Assembly: GCA_902766725.1 (NCBI GenBank)
Contig: CACXEQ010000024.1
Location: forward strand, 13,577 to 77,576
Length of the DNA: 64,000 bases
From: an uncultured Ureaplasma sp.
GTDB taxonomy: Bacteria > Bacillota_I > Bacilli_A > Mycoplasmatales > Mycoplasmoidaceae
Direction: 5' to 3'
Shown: positions 6,776 to 58,611 of the stretch, in pieces
How positions within the stretch are numbered: position 1 is the first letter of the stretch
Layout of the letters: every line of letters begins with the position of its first letter
The notes under the pieces: generated by a model
What the model was told of the DNA's origin: nothing
The model's database searches: none
What the model saw: only the letters and a program-made list of their open reading frames with translations
Translations under genes and position numbers: made by a program

Positions 6776-7211
6776 GATGTGTATATATTTGAATTATGTT
6801 CTAATGTAATTAACATGCAAACTCCAAAATAATTAATGACAGATGAACCATACTAATTTTTAGTTAATTTATTTGAATTTATTAGCATTCAACTTTTATA
6901 AGTTATTACATAAAATATTTATAATTAATTTGTTTATTGTTCAGAAAATTTTAGCAATATTAATAATAAATTAAAACAATTGATTTAACATCAAGATGAT
7001 TATTGAATTTTCGTCTTAAAATAAAAATATGAATATTAAATGTAATTAGTTAAATCGCATTTACTTAAATAAAGCTAATTTTATTTAAAAAATCAGGTAA
7101 ATATGCGAGATTTAGTATTGTTTTTATGATTTTATTTAAATTCTTGAACCCCATATTTTGAAAAATAATATAGGATACTTCTTTGTGAAATTTGATGCAT
7201 TATTTGTTTCA

Positions 7212-7219
7212 TTTTTTTT
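7212..7219. repeat. Homopolymer T8 (A8 on the coding strand) inside the endonuclease gene, distal tract
   Basis: Counted directly: a7211, t7212-t7219, g7220. The frame change between the catalytic core and the C-terminal EcoRI-like tail maps here. A7 or A10 would restore the frame. Confidence 0.85.
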
Positions 7220-7668
7220 GATTCAAATGGGTGTTTGTTGAAAATAAAAACTTTCTCTTTTTGTAAATTCTGTATTAAACAAATTAATTTTGTTTATTTC
7301 ACCAAATTCAGCAATAATAATTATTCGATCAAGAATTGTTGATTTGTCATTAAAATCTCACCCCCATCCAAAGCAAACATATGGAAATATTGTTTCATCT
7401 TTTAACCATGTTCTAAAACCTATAATATTTTTTCCCAAGCGTTCAATTGCATTACCAGAAGCTTGTTTTTTTCCATTTGTTGCTATTATTTCATCATTAG
7501 TCCCTTGCTTTTTTTGTTCTGCAATTAAAATAGGATATTTATTACATGATTTATCGATAATAAACAATATACCACCATCAGGTTTCATTGATGAATTATC
7601 AAATTTATAATTCCATTGTTCGTTCGGGAACTTTTTTCTTAATTTTTCAACAATATCTTTAAGTGTGA

Positions 7669-7676
7669 TTTTTTTT
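7669..7676. repeat. Homopolymer T8 (A8 on the coding strand) inside the endonuclease gene, proximal tract
   Basis: Counted directly: a7668, t7669-t7676, c7677. With A8 the N-terminal frame ends 30 nt downstream. A9 or A6 would read HEKKITLKDIVEKLRKKF...KPDGG continuously. Confidence 0.9.
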
Positions 7677-7838
7677 CATGATAAATAGTAATATTAAATT
7701 CATTTTGCAATTTTTTTCTTAAATCTGATGTTATATCATAAATTAATTTATCCATACCAGTAGAAATCTTTGTAAGTGCTTTACCACCACCTAATTTTTG
7801 TAAAATTGATGATATTTTTTTACTATTAGACATTTTGT

Positions 7839-8442
7839 TTATGTACCTCTTACTCGACTTTTGTACATTCTGCTAGGAACATAATTATTTTTTGCATTAT
7901 TATTCTTAATATGTACGAAAATTAAATCTCTTGGTAAAAAGTCATTTGAACAAATAAATGAAGAATTAAAACTTGATGGTTTTCCATTAAAAGAGACTCG
8001 TTTATCTACAATTAACAATTGACATTTGTTATCAGCAAAATAATTACCTATACATTGATAATTGAGTGCCATAATATTCATAATCATTGCTCATGGTTTT
8101 TTAAATGAATTTAATCTTTTAAAAACTTCAAGTTTTTTAGAAAATGGTGGGTTACTTAAAGCAATATCTCATAATTTTGGTTGTCATTTAAAAAAATCTT
8201 TTCCATCTCATTTATGAGAACAAATATATTTGAAACCATACTTTCTACAAAAATATGTAAATTCACTATTTTTAGTATCAAAAGGTAATCAAATTATTGG
8301 ATTGCGTTTTAATTGTTTAGAATGTTTTTTGACAAGTCTATCTATATATATATATATATATAGATATAGATTCAACTAAAATTTTTGGAGTAAACAACTC
8401 GTCATTTTTATTTTTAACTGCTTGTTTAATTGAATACACCAT
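7839..8442 (-). pseudogene. EcoRI-methylase-like N6-adenine DNA methyltransferase, out of frame at an internal (TA)10 tract (OFF state or pseudogene)
   Basis: The ATG at 8442 gives MVYSIKQAVKNKNDELFTPKILVESISIYIYIYR and then a TAG at 8338..8340. The next frame is open from 8375 to 7839 and reads ...IDRLVKKHSKQLKRNPIIWLPFDTKNSEFTYFCRKYGF...WDIALSNPPFSKKLEVFKRLNSFKKPWAMIMNIMAL...RVSFNGKPSSFNSSFICSN. Its landmarks parallel M.EcoRI: DELFTP vs DEFYTQ, a D-x3-S-x-F-x2-(Y)F segment, and the NPPF catalytic motif followed by a helper helix. ATG to stop is 604 nt, which is 3n+1. Confidence 0.75.
8343..8362. repeat. (TA)10 dinucleotide microsatellite inside the methyltransferase coding region
   Basis: Read directly: tc-(ta)x10-gatataga. 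Adding one unit (606 nt) or removing two units (600 nt) fuses the two methyltransferase reading frames into a 201- or 199-codon ORF. Confidence 0.95.
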
Positions 8443-8459
8443 AACGATATTAAATTATA

Positions 8460-8864
8460 TTATTTGTTATTATTTTTATGAAAATTATCTGATAAACCAC
8501 CGCATATAAGTTTACTAAATATTTTTTTAACTTTATGTTTTATGGTCTTTCTAGTTTGACTATTATTAATTTTTAATCAACTTTTCTTAATAACATCTGA
8601 ATTATTTACTAAAATTGGTTTATGAATTCAAATATATGTATCATATTTAAAAGAATTATTCAATTTTTTTGAAATTTTGATGCAACATTTTTTATTATAT
8701 TTATCAATTTTTGTTGAACAATAAAAACAAAACATTTTATGTGATAAATATTTAGATTTATTACATCATATTAAAATAGGACGTTTCTTTTTGTTTGAAA
8801 CATTTTCATATGGATTATATTGTCATTCATATACTCATCGTATTTGAAGATGCAAATTTTTCAT
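8460..8864 (-). CDS. Hypothetical Cys-rich protein (134 aa), first gene of the R-M cassette
   Basis: The ATG at 8864 gives an ORF with no TAA/TAG for 135 codons in a very AT-rich context (five TGA read as Trp). The product is MKNLHLQIRWVYEWQYNPYENVSNKKKRPILIWCNKSKYLSHKMFCFYCSTKIDKYNKKCCIKISKK... It is co-oriented with the methyltransferase and ends 17 nt upstream of its ATG. I do not recognise any family. Confidence 0.6.
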
Positions 8865-36423: not shown

Positions 36424-37299
36424 TTAGTTGTTTCGTTCTATATAGTTATTTATTATTTTATACAATAAATTTGCTTCATATGGTTCTAATGATAAAATAT
36501 GGTAACCGGTTGGAATAAATGCAAAATTATTCCTATTTAACTTTATTTTTAATAAATTGATTGTATTAGTTTTAGCCATTATATCTTGTCCTGATTGAAT
36601 ATACAAAAATTTATATTTTAATTTATTACATTTTAAAATTAATTTTTTAAATATTCTAATATATCTTCAACATGCTAAAACAGAAAAACTATGATTTTTA
36701 CTTGCTATTGACATTTGTTTAATTTTAATAAGTAATTCATTTCTAGTTATCTTAATAAAATCTGATTGCAAATTTGGTAAAATAAATGGAATTTTAAAAA
36801 AAAACGATAAAAGCATTTTGCAGACTGTTTGGACCACTATTTTGAAACTATATTTTTCTGGTGAGTTTCATTTTGTTGGCATGTTTCAAATTATCACATT
36901 TTTTATTTTATTGAAACCCTTTTTTTTATAATACAATAAGTTTATTCCTGCTCCTCATGATTCACCAAATAAATATATTTTTTTGTTAGGGAATAAATTC
37001 TTAATATAATTGACAATATCATCTAACTCAATTAGGTATTTGTTTTTATATTGTGATGGATTATTTTTGTTGTTCCCATGAAACATTTTATCATAACAAA
37101 CAAAATAGTAATTGTCATAAAACTTATGATTTAACAATATTGATCCCGAAATAGTGCCAAGCAAACCACTATTATAAATTATGATATTAGCATTATTGAT
37201 ATTTTTTAATGGTGATATAATCGCAATAGGAATAGGATGTTTGAAATGTTTAGTTAAGATTTCAATGTATTTAATTCTAGTTTCTTCAAATTTTTTCAT
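36424..37299 (-). CDS. Alpha/beta-hydrolase-fold protein (esterase/lysophospholipase-like)
   Basis: The nucleophile-elbow motif GESWG has its W encoded by TGA at the junction of track ORF 36955..37299. The frame continues to 36424 (292 codons). The gene sits inside the glycosyltransferase locus. Confidence 0.62.
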
Positions 37300-38455: not shown

Positions 38456-39692
38456 TTTTGCGAAGTTTTTTCTTATTTTTATATTGAATCAATTGGATCG
38501 TTATTAGAGGAATGGCCCCTATTGTTCCTGTTAATGTTGGCAAATAAGTATAGAATCATCGTCATAAAAAAATACTATTGATAGTGATTCTTTCTTTTTC
38601 TCATTCATTAACATTGCTATTTTTTCAACAGTTTGTTAATGTTAATAAATCTTTTAAAAATTTATCAAGAGTTAATATCCCGCCAGGGATAAAAAAGAAA
38701 ATAGTATTTGCTGTAACAGCAACATTAGCACAATTAAAAGCCATATAGAAATTTATATTTGTATTCTCTTGAGTAAATATCATTCCAAAGCATATACACA
38801 AATATAAATAAATCTCAAAACCAACATATAAAACAAAACATATTAAAGATATTTTTCAATCTTTAATAAGATTTATAAAATTATTTCGCATTGTTGCTCT
38901 TATTTGGTATTTTTGTTCAATTTGTTCTTTTGTATGATATTTCATCCCAAATTTTTTTTTAATTCAATTACCAACACGAGAAAGAATGAAATGAATTTTT
39001 TTAGATCAACATAAAATAAATCAACCAAAAAAACATAAAAAATTAAATCCCATCCCTAAAATAACAGTTATCAGTGTGAATCAACCGTCTCTGTTTTGCA
39101 CTAATTTTATAAATCCATCATTAATAGTTCATAAATAAATAAAGGATGGTAAAGTAACAGTTAATGCTGCTGCTTGTCACGTAAGGGAGTTAGTAATTAC
39201 AATGCTTGTTGCTTTATCTGTTGATAAACCTTTGGTTTTTAGTCAAAACATTGTATATGGATCGATGAAAATTGATGGTGGTGTTATTCCTTTAAAAAAT
39301 GCAATCGTTAAAGAAAAAATAATATATTCCCATGTGGGAATATTAATATTGATTTTTGATAAACGTGGATAAAAACCAAGAAATGCATATGCAATACTTC
39401 ATAGATATTCAAGACAAAAACAAACAAATAAAACATAGCCAATTTTTCTATTAAATCCATTATTTATTGCACCAAAAAATTGTTTTACATCTATTTTAAG
39501 AACCAAACTAAATGCTAAGGCAATCAAGACAAGTGAAAGAACAAAGAAAAAAAACAAAAAAAAGATATTTTTCTTTGAATAAATTTTTTTACCTTCAATA
39601 GATTCAATAAGTGTCTCATTGGACTGTTTTATTCTGGTGGTAAAAAAATTATGTTTGTGTTCATTCTTGCAATCAATGTTTGATTTCATCAT
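38445..39692 (-). CDS. Polytopic membrane protein, possibly flippase-like (LPG-synthase TM-region/UPF0104-like)
   Basis: Track ORF 39399..39692 is extended through many TGA codons to a TAA at 38445..38447 (416 codons). There are multiple hydrophobic spans. The family call is only an impression from the architecture. It overlaps the glf start by 11 nt. Confidence 0.5.
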
Positions 39693-39730: not shown

Positions 39731-40432
39731 TTAATTAGTTAATTTTACATTAGAATAGTATTTTAATATTTTAATAGAAATTTGACAAATATGATTAGCA
39801 AAAACATGAAAATTATTTCGATATTGATTTAAATGATTAGTTTGTGGTGTGCATAAATTATCAGATATTATTTTTAAGCAAATGAAATTAACATTAGTTT
39901 TGTTGCATATTTGTGCAATTGCTGTTGCTTCCATATCAAATCCTAATATTTTTCCTTGAACAATTGCTGGGAATTGTTCAATATTTTTAGCGTTTATAAA
40001 TGAATCAGAAGTAGCTAATGCACCAATTTTAGCATTGTTAAACAATCTTTTTAATAATAAAATATTTGATTGATTAATTGGATATATTTTTTTTTCATTT
40101 GGTAACTGGTTGGCAGGATAATTAAGTGTTGTTAGATCAACATCACAATACATTAATGAATCAACAATTAATAAATCATCAACTGATATATTAGGCTTAT
40201 GGCTACCACACATACCAATATTTATTATTATTGTTGGTTGAAAATTGATAATCATATTCATGGTTGCAGCAGCAGCATTAGCTTTGCCCACCCCTGAAAA
40301 ACAAATTACTATTTGTTTATCATTTAATGATCCAATGTAAAAACAAAAATTATTAAATTCAATAATTTTTGCATTTATTTCTTTTAGAAGATTACCAACT
40401 TCTTCCTTTTCTGCAGCAATTAGACCAATCAT
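39731..40432 (-). CDS. mtnN: 5'-methylthioadenosine/S-adenosylhomocysteine nucleosidase
   Basis: The product starts MIGLIAAEKEEV...ICFSGVGKANAAAATMNMI, with GFDMEATAIAQ further on. Uninterrupted 233-aa ORF. Confidence 0.85.
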   Translation of the reverse strand: MIGLIAAEKEEVGNLLKEINAKIIEFNNFCFYIGSLNDKQIVICFSGVGKANAAAATMNMIINFQPTIIINIGMCGSHKPNISVDDLLIVDSLMYCDVDLTTLNYPANQLPNEKKIYPINQSNILLLKRLFNNAKIGALATSDSFINAKNIEQFPAIVQGKILGFDMEATAIAQICNKTNVNFICLKIISDNLCTPQTNHLNQYRNNFHVFANHICQISIKILKYYSNVKLTN

Positions 40433-41469
40433 TAGTATTTTTTCTCATTTAATTTTAAAATCTTCAAAAATGTTTTTGATAAATTTTGGAGACATTCATT
40501 AAATAGTATACATCTATTTTTGATGTCTTTTTCAGATCTTGCTGGTTCTAATTTATCAGCACAAAATAGAGCTTTAGCAATCTTGTTTTTAAAACTTGTT
40601 TTTTTAAAAATGACATGGCTATTTATTGCATCTAAAATTTTTGGATCATTTATTTTAAATTTCTGTTTAGCAATTTTTGCCCCAGCTAAGCCGTGAGCAC
40701 AATGAAGACTAGGAAAGCTGGCAAGTTCATTAGCAGATATAAGGTGTTGCAGTTTATGTATAGGTAATTCTTTAGCTATATCATGTAAGATTGCAGCAAT
40801 CTGACATCTTCATATGTCTTTATCATTAAAATTATTATAAATAGCTATTTTTGATATAGTATCTAACACACGCAAGGTATGACAATATCTATATTCACTC
40901 ATGTATTTTTTTATTTGGTATTGTAAATATAATTTATTGTTTTTAATGAATTGATAATTTGATTTTCCTAGTTGATTTATATTAGGTTTAGATCGTAATT
41001 TTGTACTACAATAAGCGAAAATTCTATCATCAATAATTAGATGTTTTTTTGCTATTTGAATTATTTTTTTGTTTGATCGTTTATAACAAATAATTGTTGT
41101 TAACTTATTTAGTGAATCATATTTGTTTCACTTTTTAATTAATAAATATTGATCTTGCCCAATTAGAAAAAAGAGTTTTGAATTTGGAAAATTATTTTTT
41201 ATATCTTCAATGATATTGTAGGTATATATATATTTTTTTTTGTTATGATAAAAACTAAATTTAAGTTGATTTTTAAAAAGATTTTCGACCATTTGTTTTC
41301 TATATGAAAAAGGAACAAGTTCACCAATATTTTTTCAAGGTGGAATTTTATCAATGCAAATAATTATTTTATTTGGTTTGATTTTATTAGCAACACATAG
41401 TACAATTTTTAAATGACCAATGTGAGGAGGATTGAAAGCACCAGCAAAGATTAATATTTTATTATTCAT
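40432..41469 (-). CDS. nadD: Fusion of nicotinate-nucleotide adenylyltransferase (NadD) with a YqeK-type HD-domain hydrolase
   Basis: The ATG at 41469 opens MNNKILIFAGAFNPPHIGHLKIV (the NadD H-x-G-H motif). The C-terminal half carries RYCHTLRVLD...AAILHDIAKE...HCAHGLAGA...FCADKLEP, the HD-domain signature. The reading frame is continuous for 346 codons with TGA = Trp. Confidence 0.8.
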
Positions 41470-48690: not shown

Positions 48691-49344
48691 TTATTTTTGA
48701 AATAATTTTGTTTTTAAATTTATTTGATCAATATTATTAAAAAATCAACTTCCTGAAATTACACAATCAACATAGTTTTTAACTAGTGGAATAGTCTTAT
48801 CATTAATACCACCATCGATTTGTATAATAAGATTTGAGAATTTTTTTTTCAATTTTTTAGATATTGATAAGTTATTGTAACAATTATGAGAAAATGTTTG
48901 ACCGGCTTTACCAGGTTCAACAGACATGATAAGTAAAATATTAACATAAGGCATTAATTTTATATATTTTTTTAAATCAGTTTCCATTTTAATAGCAATC
49001 ATTGTTTTGAAACCCATTTTTTCTATTTTTTTTAAAATTAAAATCGCTTTTAATGTATTTTGGGATTCTACATGAAAACCAAGTGAATTTAATTTAAAAT
49101 ATCTATATTTTTCTATTCATTTGTTTGGATCATTGACCATTAAATGGACATCTGCTTTTAGGTTACAATCTTGAATATCTTTTAAATATTGTGAAATAAA
49201 TGATGTATTATTACAAAAACTTTTTTCCATGACATCATAATGAATATAATTAATCCCCATAGCTTTAATTTTTTTTAATTGAGGAATAATTTTCTTTGAT
49301 GCGTTTATTGATAATAGTGATGGTTCAAGTATTATTCTATTCAT
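48691..49344 (-). CDS. rpe: Ribulose-phosphate 3-epimerase
   Basis: The product starts MNRIILEPSLLSI...IHYDVME...DVHLMV...MSVEPGKAGQ...IQIDGGIN. Same-frame fragments are joined by TGA. I preferred the ATG at 49344 over the upstream TTG at 49377. Confidence 0.9.
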
Positions 49345-56547: not shown

Positions 56548-58611
56548 TTAGCTTATTTGCAAATCATGCGATTGTTGAATTATGTCCATCACATCATCAA
56601 GTTGGTCTAATTTATCCAGGAACAATTCACAATCACCATTCCCTCATCTTCCAACTCTAGTAATATCTTTACATATGCCTTTTGGATCTTTTACATCAGC
56701 AAATTTCATGTTAACTGATATACGAAGTCTTTTTTTTTGGAATACGATATCCACAAAATTTGTATCTAACTTATATGCCACATATTTTTTTTTAAATTCC
56801 TTTTTCACTCCAGATGACAAGTTCATTATTCTCGTATCAATCTTTTCAAAAAGATTTTTTGTAAATGAATTAGTTTCGTATGTATCAATAGAATACTTAG
56901 GAGCATCATCAAGACAAGTAGTTTTGTAAGGAGTCATCTCCTTGTCTGATAATTGTGGGTATGCTCATATTTTAAGGGCCTTTTTAAACAAGATATTTGC
57001 TCTTTCTTTAATTTTTTCTTCATTTCATGTTTTTTGAAGAATAACATATTCGTTCAAACGAAGTGCGCTTAGCTTAAATCCACCATCCATATTCATCTTT
57101 TCCATAAATGACTTATTACTCATTTCAGAGTTATATCCCGTAAGAGTCAAATTACCTATGGTATGTAGATATGTATCATGCACTCTCTTCCAATCATTTC
57201 CAAGATCTTCTTTCCATTCATCACAAAGATTGTCATTTTGAGGCATTATATGTTCAATAGTTAGATTTTCAATATTAACTGGAGATTTATTATCGTAATT
57301 CTCAAGTCTATCAAGAATATAATTCCTATTTCACATACTATATATTTTTTTAGATATAAAAGCTTCACGAAATTTTTCATCAGTAGGAAATTCTTTATAA
57401 TTATCTTTTTTAATAAAGAATGCTTTTACTGAATTCAAATAATCAGATTTTTTTATTTCCTTTTCAAAAGTAGCAAATGTTTTATTAAGTGAGTTAGTTG
57501 GGATTTCACAAATACTTCTTCTAACGACATAGCTAATACAAAGTTTAATAATCTCAATTAAACTTTCAAACGGAGCAAGAGTTCCAGCTTGATAATCATG
57601 AATAACAGTCATTAAAAATGGATTGGCTACACTCATTTTCAAAGCTTTTATTTCCTTAAATAATGAAGTTAGCTGTGGATTGCTATTCTTAGCAAATACT
57701 ATATCAGTATATATTTTTGCAAAATCATACAAATCTTTACACAAATTATTGTTATTATTGAACTTACAATTAGCCATCCATGCTTTAAATTCATCATAGA
57801 CGTTTCCAATCTTTGGAATTCTATGCATATTCATAGTTAAATAATCTCTAAAGAAATTATCCATAAGTTCATCTTGATCCATGTGACCAAACAACTGTTC
57901 AAAAGGTCGCCAATGATTATCATATAGACTTTTTTGCATATCTTTGTCCATTCCCATAAGAACATAATTTCTAATTAAATCTGATTGAGATAATTTCTTA
58001 CCTGTTGAATTAAGACTTTCAAATATAGCTTGTGGATCATCATGTTCTCTCTCTAGTTTGATAATTACTATTTGAAGTTTTTCTGTTGCATTGAATAATA
58101 ATTGCGGATCTATTTCTTGCTTAGATATTTCATTCTTAAAGTAATTATAAGCATTTAAGAGTTTTGATTGTGTTCCATCAGGTATTGGCTTTTTCTCAAT
58201 TAACGAAATAATGATATCTTTATCTTCTTTAGTTAATAAGAGTTTGTATTTTTCATCTCCTGTTTCAAATTGATTAATTAAAAATGACAGATTAAGTTTT
58301 TCAGGTTTAATCTTAGAATCAGCTGAAATGCTATCTCTTAGCGCTATTAAAATAAGAGTTAATGTAGATAATCTTTGTTGTCCATCAATGACCATGTATT
58401 TTTGTACACCAGTTGGAGAAACCCTTTCTGCTATACAAACAATACAACCAAGAAAATGCCCCTCTTTATTTTCTTTTTGCATTGCAACAATATCTAGCCA
58501 TAGTCTACTACACTGAGATTGATCCCAACTATAAAGACGTTGATAAACTGGAATTAAATATTGTTTATCACCATTTAGTAATTTGTATATATTTTCTTTA
58601 TAGGTATCCAT
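56548..58611 (-). CDS. GmrSD-like DUF262/DUF1524 nuclease (type IV restriction / anti-phage family) with an extra C-terminal domain
   Basis: The N-terminal DUF262 region has YLIPVYQRLYSWDQ and VIDGQQRLSTL. The central DUF1524 His-Me finger has LTIEHIMPQN...HTIGNLTL...N. A further ~150-aa C-terminal domain follows. Track ORFs 57331..58611, 57025..57246 and 56644..56937 share one frame and are joined by four TGA at Trp-like positions (688 codons). A GGAGGA Shine-Dalgarno sequence lies at 58619..58624, 7 nt from the ATG. Confidence 0.85.

What the first reader, a model, noticed from the sequence alone, without database searches (positions are those of the whole stretch)
8338..8378. (TA)10 microsatellite inside the methyltransferase ORF acts as a frame switch, currently OFF
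The N-terminal frame (ATG at 8442, 34 codons, carrying the DELFTP motif) runs through the (TA)10 tract and hits a TAG at 8338..8340. The frame carrying the rest of the enzyme opens at 8375 and runs to 7839. ATG to stop is 604 nt. (TA)11 gives 606 nt and (TA)8 gives 600 nt, and either makes one continuous ORF reading ...VESISIYIYIYIYIDRLVKKH... Dinucleotide repeats change frame with every unit gained or lost, which is the classic slipped-strand phase-variation design. A TA repeat placed inside an N6A-methyltransferase coding region is uncommon compared with the poly-G or tetra/pentanucleotide tracts of known phasevarions.
Basis: seen in the sequence. Interest (0 to 1): 0.75.

Follow-up and report, generated by a model that had tools for sequence, protein, structure and literature searches.

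The report
TA-repeat on/off switch in methylase
A run of ten TA units near the start of a mycoplasma DNA-methylase gene is a real, length-variable frame switch, currently off; the same gene family carries three different repeat types in relatives, and the methylase is often off beside an apparently intact restriction enzyme, which is unexpected.

Summary
An exact (TA)10 lies at 8343-8362 on the minus strand. It is the only long dinucleotide repeat in the 64-kb window (about 2e-5 expected by chance). It splits a roughly 200-aa N6-adenine methyltransferase gene (ATG 8442, stop 7839; TGA = Trp). Lengths of 8, 11 or 14 units give one continuous ORF.

In this lineage the endonuclease (7833-7132) is dead, with two frameshifts.

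Comparative DNA supports a true contingency switch:
- The same allele carries (TA)10 in five assemblies and (TA)9 in a sixth.
- Two close alleles each occur in an OFF and an ON form that differ by one TA unit.
- The tract sits at the same codons throughout a clade that includes M. lipophila and M. hyopharyngis.
- A sister clade carries (AG)14-16 and another relative carries C10 in the same N-terminal region. Nineteen distant homologues carry none.

No ON form of the window's own allele was found, so recent decay here cannot be excluded.

Unexplained: in at least 8 lineages M is OFF while the endonuclease ORF is intact.

Verdict: a new variant of a known kind (SSR phase-variable methyltransferase); interest is moderate.

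The parts
8343..8362 (-). Exact (TA)10 microsatellite, the frame switch. It spans codons 27-34 of the methyltransferase, between motif X (DELFTP) and the first beta-strand (IIWLPFD).
   Evidence: Length polymorphism in the same allele: (TA)9 in L015.
8337..8368 (-). Extended imperfect repeat: TATATC-(TA)10-GATAGA. The 3' flank TAGATAGAC puts a TAG stop directly after the tract in both wrong frames. In the correct frame it reads I-D-R.
   Evidence: Read directly from the sequence and from translations for n = 6-14. The sister allele has (TA)9-10 followed directly by AGCTTG.
8338..8442 (-). N-terminal reading frame of the methyltransferase (34 codons plus TAG). It carries the conserved motif-X-like NDELFTP.
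   Evidence: This exact peptide is present in the protein collection (P0136).
7839..8375 (-). Reading frame carrying the rest of the methyltransferase (178 codons under code 4). It contains IIWLPFD, SNPPFS (motif IV) and VDKRVSFNG, and has no other disruption.
   Evidence: PF13651, weak; PADLOC MTase_II, phrog_799. On the window branch there are 10 synonymous and 4 non-synonymous changes.
7132..7833 (-). EcoRI-family Type II restriction endonuclease gene, a pseudogene here. It falls into three frame segments: 7833..7639, 7693..7136 and 7293..7132. Its ATG lies 5 nt after the M stop.
   Evidence: PF02963 E = 1e-14. PDB EcoRI E = 2e-12, with the alignment running through the repaired first frameshift. 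tblastn against intact homologues shows the frame order 2-1-2.
7669..7676 (-). A8 tract in the endonuclease gene, the first frameshift (-1). A9 would restore HEKKITLKD. The sister allele encodes the same peptide without a homopolymer.
   Evidence: A8 is fixed in all 7 assemblies of this allele.
7234..7236 (-). Second frameshift in the endonuclease gene: CAACAAACAC here versus CAACAACAC in the sister allele (+1 A). It is not in a long repeat.
8454..8482 (-). Best promoter-like match (TTCATA-17-TATAAT). Its -10 element ends 11 nt before the M ATG, which would give a very short leader.
   Evidence: This is a consensus match only. Promoter-like sites are not enriched over shuffles, so it is a hint and not evidence.
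8460..8864 (-). Conserved 134-aa ORF of unknown function, ending 17 nt before the M ATG. It accompanies M-R in two different genomic contexts.
   Evidence: No Pfam, PHROG or PADLOC match.

Best explanation
The (TA)10 tract is a hypermutable dinucleotide microsatellite in the 5' part of the M gene of a Type II restriction-modification operon. The M gene encodes a small (about 200 aa) gamma-class-like N6-adenine DNA methyltransferase. The R gene encodes an EcoRI-family endonuclease. The host is an uncultured Mycoplasmataceae bacterium that reads TGA as Trp; several of the assemblies carrying this cassette are labelled as rumen samples.

Inferred mechanism: slipped-strand mispairing during replication adds or removes TA units.

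Shown by translation: only lengths of 8, 11 or 14 units join the N-terminal cofactor-binding motif (DELFTP) to the catalytic core (IIWLPFD...NPPFS). Every other length runs into a TAG placed directly after the tract. With 10 units the gene is OFF.

Shown by comparison: the tract changes by single units between otherwise identical alleles. ON and OFF forms coexist in nature. The tract has been kept at the same codons through a clade with about 30% protein divergence. Sister lineages have independently placed (AG)n or poly-C in the same N-terminal region.

Inferred consequence: stochastic, heritable and reversible presence or absence of m6A at the enzyme's target, probably an AATT-core palindrome. 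In lineages with an intact R gene, the restriction barrier would also come and go.

In the window's own lineage the R gene is dead (two frameshifts). The M gene is therefore at best an orphan phase-variable methylase and at worst the last intact piece of a decaying cassette.
For: 1. Anatomy and frame arithmetic.

2. Not chance and not artefact: 2.2e-5 expected; maximum 7 units in 300 simulations; same tract in 4 other assemblies.

3. Unit-step polymorphism:
- Window allele: (TA)10 in five assemblies and (TA)9 in L015.
- Sister allele: (TA)9 OFF in L021 and (TA)10 ON in L022.
- P0001 lineage: 17-nt tract OFF in L016-18 and 19-nt tract ON in L019-20, giving the 202-aa protein P0140.

4. Conservation and convergence:
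- The TA tract sits at the same codons in M. lipophila MaBy, M. hyopharyngis H3-6B F and several MAGs.
- (AG)14, (AG)15 and (AG)16 occur in L003, L043 and L005, and C10 in L008.
- The TA bearers form one clade and the AG bearers another.
- 19 of 20 homologues at 39-55% identity from other metagenomes have no SSR.

5. Enzyme identity:
- Invariant NPPFS and conserved DELYTP motifs.
- PF13651, PADLOC MTase_II and phrog_799 hits.
- AlphaFold model with pLDDT 89.8 places the SSR-encoded residues in the helix before beta-1.
- Nearest solved folds are the gamma-class enzymes M.BseCI, M.TaqI and BsaXI.

6. M is otherwise intact, with 10 synonymous and 4 non-synonymous changes on the window branch.

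7. Precedent: (AG)n in Mycoplasma Type III mod (PMC3498834), and poly(G)/poly(GA) in Mycoplasma CpG methylases (PMC9465063).
Against: - In the window's own allele only OFF lengths were seen (six assemblies). No (TA)8, (TA)11 or (TA)14 product, under either genetic code, exists in the 15-billion-protein collection.
- The cognate R gene is a pseudogene here. The cassette may therefore be decaying rather than switching.
- The tract is flanked by mutated TA units (TATATC, GATAGA), which could be read as erosion.
- The share of ON states among distinct alleles (4 of about 14) is what random tract lengths would give. There is thus no sign of selection for ON.
- No read-level (within-population) heterogeneity, methylation data or switching rate is available.
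Confidence: 0.8

Rival explanations
1. Decaying remnant. In this lineage the whole R-M cassette is being lost. The out-of-frame tract is simply one of three disabling frameshifts and no longer serves as a switch.
For: - R has two frameshifts, fixed in 7 assemblies.
- M is OFF in 6 of 6 assemblies, and no ON product was found by exact look-up.
- The tract has degenerate flanks.
Against: - M has no lesion other than the tract.
- Substitutions on the window branch are 10 synonymous to 4 non-synonymous, like the sister branch at 11:3. For R on the window branch they are 10:16.
- The tract is still changing length, (TA)9 versus (TA)10.
- This rival concerns only the current status of this lineage. 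It does not dispute the nature of the tract in the family.
Confidence: 0.3
2. Graded rather than binary switch. 'OFF' lengths are leaky through frameshift suppression at or near the repeat, or through an N-truncated product starting at the TTG in gTTGAATC. Some methylase would then always be made.
For: - At least 8 lineages have M out of frame next to a full-length EcoRI-family ORF. That is hard to reconcile with a truly silent M.
- A 2026 preprint reports frame-dependent leaky expression from frameshifted (AG)n constructs of an M. bovis mod gene in E. coli, with an upstream A5T motif involved.
- The window has CCAAAAATTTTAG 20 nt upstream of the tract.
Against: - There is no direct evidence for TA repeats or for this gene.
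- Both wrong frames hit a stop directly after the tract.
- A truncated product would lack the conserved DELYTP motif.
Confidence: 0.2
3. Chance low-complexity run in an AT-rich genome, or an assembly or sequencing artefact, with no biological meaning.
For: The genome is 75% A+T, and short TA runs are common: 104 runs of 3 units in the window.
Against: - 2.2e-5 expected per window, and the next longest run is 5 units.
- The tract is identical in 4 other independent assemblies.
- It is conserved at the same codons in many relatives.
Confidence: 0.02

Closest known systems
MmyCI Type III mod gene of Mycoplasma mycoides subsp. capri, and the (AG)n-bearing mod genes of other mycoplasmas (PMC3498834; survey in PMC5909438)
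   Same: - A Mollicute N6-adenine methyltransferase with a dinucleotide repeat inside the coding region.
- Repeat number sets the frame.
- Stop codons lie directly after the repeat in the wrong frames.
- The genome sequences often show the OFF length.
- The M gene lies upstream of, and overlaps, the R gene.
   Different: - Here the system is Type II. It has a 200-aa methylase and a separate EcoRI-family endonuclease that should not need the methylase for DNA recognition. Switching M off is therefore not automatically safe.
- The repeat unit is TA, not AG, in the window's clade.
Phase-variable orphan CpG (m5C) methyltransferases of M. agalactiae, M. pulmonis and M. crocodyli, with poly(G) or poly(GA) tracts (PMC9465063)
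   Same: - A Type II-class methylase in mycoplasmas, switched by an SSR frameshift located just upstream of the catalytic domain.
- Length variation was shown there by fragment analysis.
   Different: - Those are m5C enzymes without a cognate endonuclease, and their tracts are G or GA.
- Here the enzyme is an m6A-type (NPPF) methylase in an operon with an endonuclease, and the tract is TA.
hpyAVIBM of Helicobacter pylori, a Type II m5C methylase with AG repeats in its ORF (PMC3411764)
   Same: A dinucleotide repeat inside the coding region of a Type II methyltransferase, proposed to be phase variable.
   Different: Different phylum, different methylation chemistry and different repeat unit. 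No three-fold convergence of repeat types within one gene family has been reported for it.
EcoRI / RsrI / MunI restriction-modification systems
   Same: - The endonuclease belongs to the EcoRI family (PF02963). The PD...E-x-K region and the GNAIER recognition stretch are conserved.
- Two separate genes encode R and M.
   Different: - The methylase is not a close M.EcoRI relative. The PF13651 hit is below threshold and covers about 50 residues, and the protein is about 120 aa shorter.
- The gene order is M then R, with overlapping stop and start.
- The classical systems carry no SSR.
- The specificity is undetermined.

Membership tests
SSR-driven phase-variable (contingency) gene | A simple sequence repeat, long enough to slip, lies inside the ORF or promoter | tested here: met
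   Exact (TA)10. It is the only dinucleotide run longer than 5 units in 64 kb.
SSR-driven phase-variable (contingency) gene | Unit changes in repeat number toggle between a full-length and a truncated product | tested here: met
   Lengths of 8, 11 and 14 units give 199-203 aa. All other lengths from 6 to 13 stop within 30-36 codons.
SSR-driven phase-variable (contingency) gene | Repeat-length polymorphism among closely related strains or populations, with both ON and OFF forms present | tested here: met
   (TA)10 versus (TA)9 in the same allele. ON/OFF pairs occur in two close alleles. An ON form of the window's own allele was not seen.
SSR-driven phase-variable (contingency) gene | High-frequency reversible switching within a clonal population | not testable with these tools
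   This needs reads or cultures. The only hint is that several contigs break at the repeat (L006, L014, L046).
Phasevarion (phase-variable regulon) | Switching of the methyltransferase changes genome-wide methylation and the expression of multiple genes | not testable with these tools
   No methylome or expression data are available. This is inference only.
Type II R-M system, EcoRI family | A separate endonuclease with the EcoRI-type PD-(D/E)XK core | tested here: met
   PF02963 at 1e-14, PDB EcoRI at 2e-12 and PADLOC REase_II at 4e-22.
Type II R-M system, EcoRI family | The endonuclease gene is intact, so the system is functional | tested here: not met
   The window's R gene has two frameshifts. 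It is intact in most related loci.
Type II R-M system, EcoRI family | M and R share a defined palindromic target (GAATTC or a related AATT-core site) | tested here: inconclusive
   The GNAIER motif is conserved. There is no under-representation of GAATTC, CAATTG or AATT in the window. There is no biochemical evidence.
Gamma-class N6-adenine DNA methyltransferase | Motif order X - I - IV with an (N/D)PP(F/Y) catalytic motif on a Rossmann fold | tested here: met
   The order is DELYTP, then IIWLPFD, then SNPPFS, with the last invariant in 19 sequences. The model is confident. The best PDB folds are M.BseCI, M.TaqI and BsaXI, but the matches are weak (E about 1e-3, TM 0.42-0.50).
Type III mod gene | A large Mod protein with a central target-recognition domain, paired with a helicase-type Res | tested here: not met
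   M is about 200 aa and has no separate TRD. The neighbouring gene is EcoRI-like, not Res.

The most novel reading that the evidence does not exclude
A classical two-gene Type II (EcoRI-family) restriction-modification operon is run as a phase-variable unit by a repeat in the methylase gene. Cells tolerate methylase-OFF genotypes next to an intact endonuclease gene, as seen in at least 8 lineages. This would imply an undescribed safeguard. Candidates are endonuclease expression or activity that depends on translation of M, leaky frameshift suppression at the repeat, a back-up methylase, or a genome free of target sites. Three different repeat types (TA, AG, poly-C) were recruited independently to the same N-terminal region of one gene family, which would point to selection for switchability itself.
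Probability: 0.35. Interest if true: 0.7.

Novelty: new variant of a known kind. Interest (0 to 1): 0.55.

Why it matters
Phase-variable methyltransferases are known mainly from Type III and Type I systems. In those systems, loss of the methylase also disarms restriction. In mycoplasmas the known repeats are AG or G.

This gene family adds a TA-repeat switch in a small Type II m6A methylase paired with a free-standing EcoRI-like endonuclease. It also shows convergent recruitment of three repeat types to the same region of one gene. That is unusually clean evidence that mutability itself is the selected trait.

The family raises a testable question: how is a methylase-OFF, endonuclease-intact genotype survived? 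Two of the carriers, M. lipophila MaBy and M. hyopharyngis H3-6B F, are named strains with complete genomes, so the question is open to experiment if cultures are available.

For the window's own lineage the practical message is more modest. The endonuclease is dead and the methylase is off. Any epigenetic role there is unproven.

Tried and rejected
- NCBIfam gave no hit for M or R.
- Pfam, PHROGs and PADLOC gave nothing for the upstream 134-aa ORF.
- Rfam at gathering threshold found only one tRNA in the window and nothing near the tract.
- Target-site inference by palindrome avoidance failed. GAATTC (11 observed / 14 expected), CAATTG (52/48) and AATT (1486/1534) are not depleted. This rejects a genome free of 4- or 6-bp sites of those three kinds for this window, and leaves the specificity unknown.
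- Translational coupling through a sequestered ribosome-binding site is not supported. Most R genes have their own GGAGG-like SD. The predicted accessibility of the SD..AUG region (0.21-0.87) is not lower than in control windows (about 0.45).
- Exact look-ups of ten hypothetical products of the window allele with other tract lengths found none.
- An attempt to name the source assembly through the cysS product failed.
An in-frame homologue, P0002, was modelled instead.
- The genome-contig scan did not return the window's own species.
- Literature searches for TA repeats in mycoplasma methylases, or for EcoRI-like mycoplasma systems, returned nothing specific.

Full report
**1. The observation**

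On the minus strand the sequence reads ...gaa tct ata tc(TA)10 gat aga ctt.... The exact (TA)10 lies at 8343..8362. The ATG at 8442 opens a 34-codon frame carrying NDELFTP, which ends at TAG 8340..8338.

A second frame is open from 8375 to TAA 7841..7839, but only if TGA is read as tryptophan. The window is 25% G+C and its genes are continuous only under code 4. ATG to stop is 604 nt.

A script that replaced the tract with 6-14 units showed single ORFs of 199, 201 and 203 aa for 8, 11 and 14 units. Every other length stopped within 30-36 codons.

The tract is far beyond chance. The next longest TA run in the window is 5 units. The Markov expectation is 2.2e-5, and the maximum in 300 simulated windows was 7 units.

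**2. What the gene is**

The repaired protein has the invariant motifs DELYTP, IIWLPFD and SNPPFS. Its database hits are:
- a sub-threshold hit to EcoRI_methylase PF13651;
- PADLOC Type II MTase;
- PHROG 799, DNA methyltransferase.

An AlphaFold model of an in-frame homologue is confident (pLDDT 89.8). Its nearest solved folds are the gamma-class adenine methylases M.BseCI, M.TaqI and BsaXI, though the matches are weak (E about 1e-3, TM 0.42-0.50).

The repeat-encoded residues lie in the helix between the N-terminal motif and the first beta-strand. That segment varies in length and sequence across the family. From general knowledge of gamma-class enzymes, the N-terminal xxTP motif (motif X) contributes to the AdoMet pocket. 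A product lacking it should therefore be inactive; this is inference.

**3.

Five nucleotides after the M stop an ORF begins (ATG 7833). It belongs to the EcoRI endonuclease family: PF02963 at 1e-14, PDB EcoRI at 2e-12, and PADLOC REase_II at 4e-22.

In the window this gene is broken twice:
- A -1 shift at an A8 tract (7669..7676). A9 restores HEKKITLKD, and the EcoRI alignment runs through the repaired junction.
- A +1 A at 7234..7236 (CAACAAACAC versus CAACAACAC in the sister allele).

The A8 state is fixed in all seven assemblies of this allele. The endonuclease is therefore a genuine pseudogene here.

**4. Comparative evidence that the tract is a switch**

*Protein search.* Many close homologues had been called as N-truncated proteins starting M.YIYIY..., and one had RIERERERERES at nearly the same place. 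I fetched the DNA of 30 or so related loci.

*Window allele.* It carries (TA)10 in the window and in four other independent assemblies, and (TA)9 with identical flanks in L015. Both lengths are OFF.

*Sister allele in the same genomic background.* It carries (TA)9 OFF in L021 and (TA)10 ON in L022.

*Next lineage (MAG GCA_017959425, Mycoplasma sp.).* It has a 17-nt tract that is OFF in three assemblies and a 19-nt tract that is ON in two. The ON form gives the 202-aa protein P0140.

*Other TA bearers.* The tract occupies the same codons in:

| Locus | Source | Tract | State |
|---|---|---|---|
| L001 | M. lipophila MaBy | (TA)11 | OFF |
| L004 | M. hyopharyngis H3-6B F | (TA)11 | OFF |
| L002 | MAG | 21 nt | OFF |
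| L023 | metagenome contig | (TA)9 | OFF |
| L044, L045 | ENA scaffold and Logan contig | (TA)8 | OFF |
| L046 | contig ends at the tract | (TA)12 | undetermined |

*Other repeat types.* A sister clade carries (AG)14 OFF, (AG)16 OFF and (AG)15 ON, located 12 codons downstream. One relative (L008) has C10 encoding TPPPL inside the N-terminal motif, and it is ON.

*Tree and outgroups.* A neighbour-joining tree puts the TA bearers in one clade and the AG bearers in another. Repeat-free Mycoplasma homologues lie around them. Of 20 loci returned by the metagenome scan, the 19 distant homologues (39-55% identity) carry no repeat.

*Conclusions from this section.*
- There were three independent recruitments of a repeat into one region of one gene family.
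- The TA tract has been retained through about 30% protein divergence.
- These two points argue for selection of mutability, not for accident.
- Several contigs end exactly at the repeat (L006, L014, L046). This is what within-sample length heterogeneity would do to an assembler, but it is only a hint.

**5. Status in the window's own lineage**

M has no lesion other than the tract. With L016 as outgroup, the window branch has 10 synonymous and 4 non-synonymous changes in M, against 11:3 on the sister branch. For R the window branch has 10:16. The numbers are small. They suggest M was under purifying selection for most of that branch.

On the other hand, only OFF lengths were seen. Exact look-ups of ten hypothetical products for other tract lengths found nothing in about 15 billion proteins. 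I therefore cannot exclude that the cassette has recently died here as a whole.

**6. An unexplained point that goes beyond the finding**

In at least eight lineages M is out of frame while the endonuclease ORF is full length (233-246 aa), with its catalytic and GNAIER motifs intact. These lineages are L001, L003, L004, L005, L016-18, L021 (whose ORF runs off the contig end at 229 aa), L023 and L044/45. For a free-standing Type II endonuclease this genotype should be lethal.

Evidence that bears on it:
- The M stop and the R start lie within -5 to +11 nt of each other in all lineages examined. That looks like translational coupling.
- Against simple coupling, most R genes have their own GGAGG-like site. 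The predicted accessibility of that site is not reduced.
- No depletion of GAATTC, CAATTG or AATT is seen in the window.

Options that remain open:
- mRNA destabilisation after the early stop;
- leaky frameshift suppression, as a 2026 preprint reports for (AG)n in an M. bovis mod gene;
- a second protecting methylase;
- endonucleases inactivated by missense changes.

The share of ON states among distinct alleles (4 of about 14) is close to the one third expected for random lengths. This also says that OFF is well tolerated.

**7. Comparison with what is known**

Repeat-driven ON/OFF switching of methyltransferases is well established. In mycoplasmas the known cases are:
- (AG)n in Type III mod genes, such as MmyCI (PMC3498834; survey PMC5909438);
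- (AG)n in Type I hsdS genes (PMC7383803);
- poly(G)/poly(GA) in orphan CpG methylases (PMC9465063).

H. pylori hpyAVIBM has AG repeats in a Type II m5C methylase (PMC3411764). A 2026 review notes that ON/OFF switching has only 'limited representation' in Type II systems. My searches found no report of a TA repeat in a mycoplasma methylase, nor of this EcoRI-like family.

The mechanism is therefore of a known kind. The new elements are:
- the TA unit;
- the Type II two-gene setting;
- the three-fold convergence of repeat types;
- the toleration of M-OFF next to an intact R gene.

**8. Verdict**

- Novelty: a new variant of a known kind.
- Interest is moderate (0.55). It would be higher if the M-OFF / R-intact paradox turns out to reflect a new safeguard.

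Noticed in passing
window 7150-8440 versus L021: The window and contig L021 are 98-100% identical in DNA from 9501 down to about 8402 (the SpoU methylase gene, orf134 and the start of M). Identity then drops to 78-97% across the rest of M and all of R. It returns to 96-100% at the 3' end of R (about 7300-7147). This looks like an allelic replacement or recombination island, with its 5' boundary at or near the TA tract.
   Followed up: partly
window 8460-8864 (-); L016 2511-2915; L021 638-1042: A 134-aa ORF with a CxxC...CC pattern has no family match. It sits 17-18 nt upstream of M in two different genomic contexts: SpoU...pta in the window, and HU...NadE in L016. It may therefore belong to the mobile R-M cassette. 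It is absent upstream of M in M. lipophila and M. hyopharyngis.
   Followed up: partly
window 56548-58611 (-): An intact 687-aa GmrSD-family Type IV (modification-dependent) restriction enzyme, with domains GmrSD_N, GmrSD_C and DUF5655. It contains two in-frame A9 tracts on the coding strand (T9 at 56730-56738 and 56785-56793 on the plus strand). These could be additional slippage sites.
   Followed up: partly
L006 1-18; L014 1-21; L046 start: Three independent metagenome contigs begin or end exactly in the (AG)n or (TA)n tract of this gene. This is consistent with assembly-graph breaks caused by within-sample length heterogeneity.
   Followed up: no
L001 4580-4600; L004 4585-4604; L016 3510-3532; L046 about 525-545: The poorly conserved C-terminal tail of M repeatedly encodes a GGAGG-like Shine-Dalgarno sequence for the overlapping R gene. 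Overlaps are 1, 8 or 11 nt. The tail sequence seems constrained by R initiation rather than by M function.
   Followed up: partly
window 8382-8394 (-): CCAAAAATTTTAG, which encodes the conserved residues TPKIL, lies 20 nt upstream of the tract. It resembles the A5T slippery motif implicated in frameshift rescue in the M. bovis mod preprint (10.64898/2026.04.01.715767).
   Followed up: no
window 36796-36804, 38952-38960, 40087-40095, 41233-41241, 48841-48849: Five further 9-nt A or T homopolymers lie inside otherwise intact ORFs of 239-418 codons, and all are in frame. Their functions were not examined.
   Followed up: no
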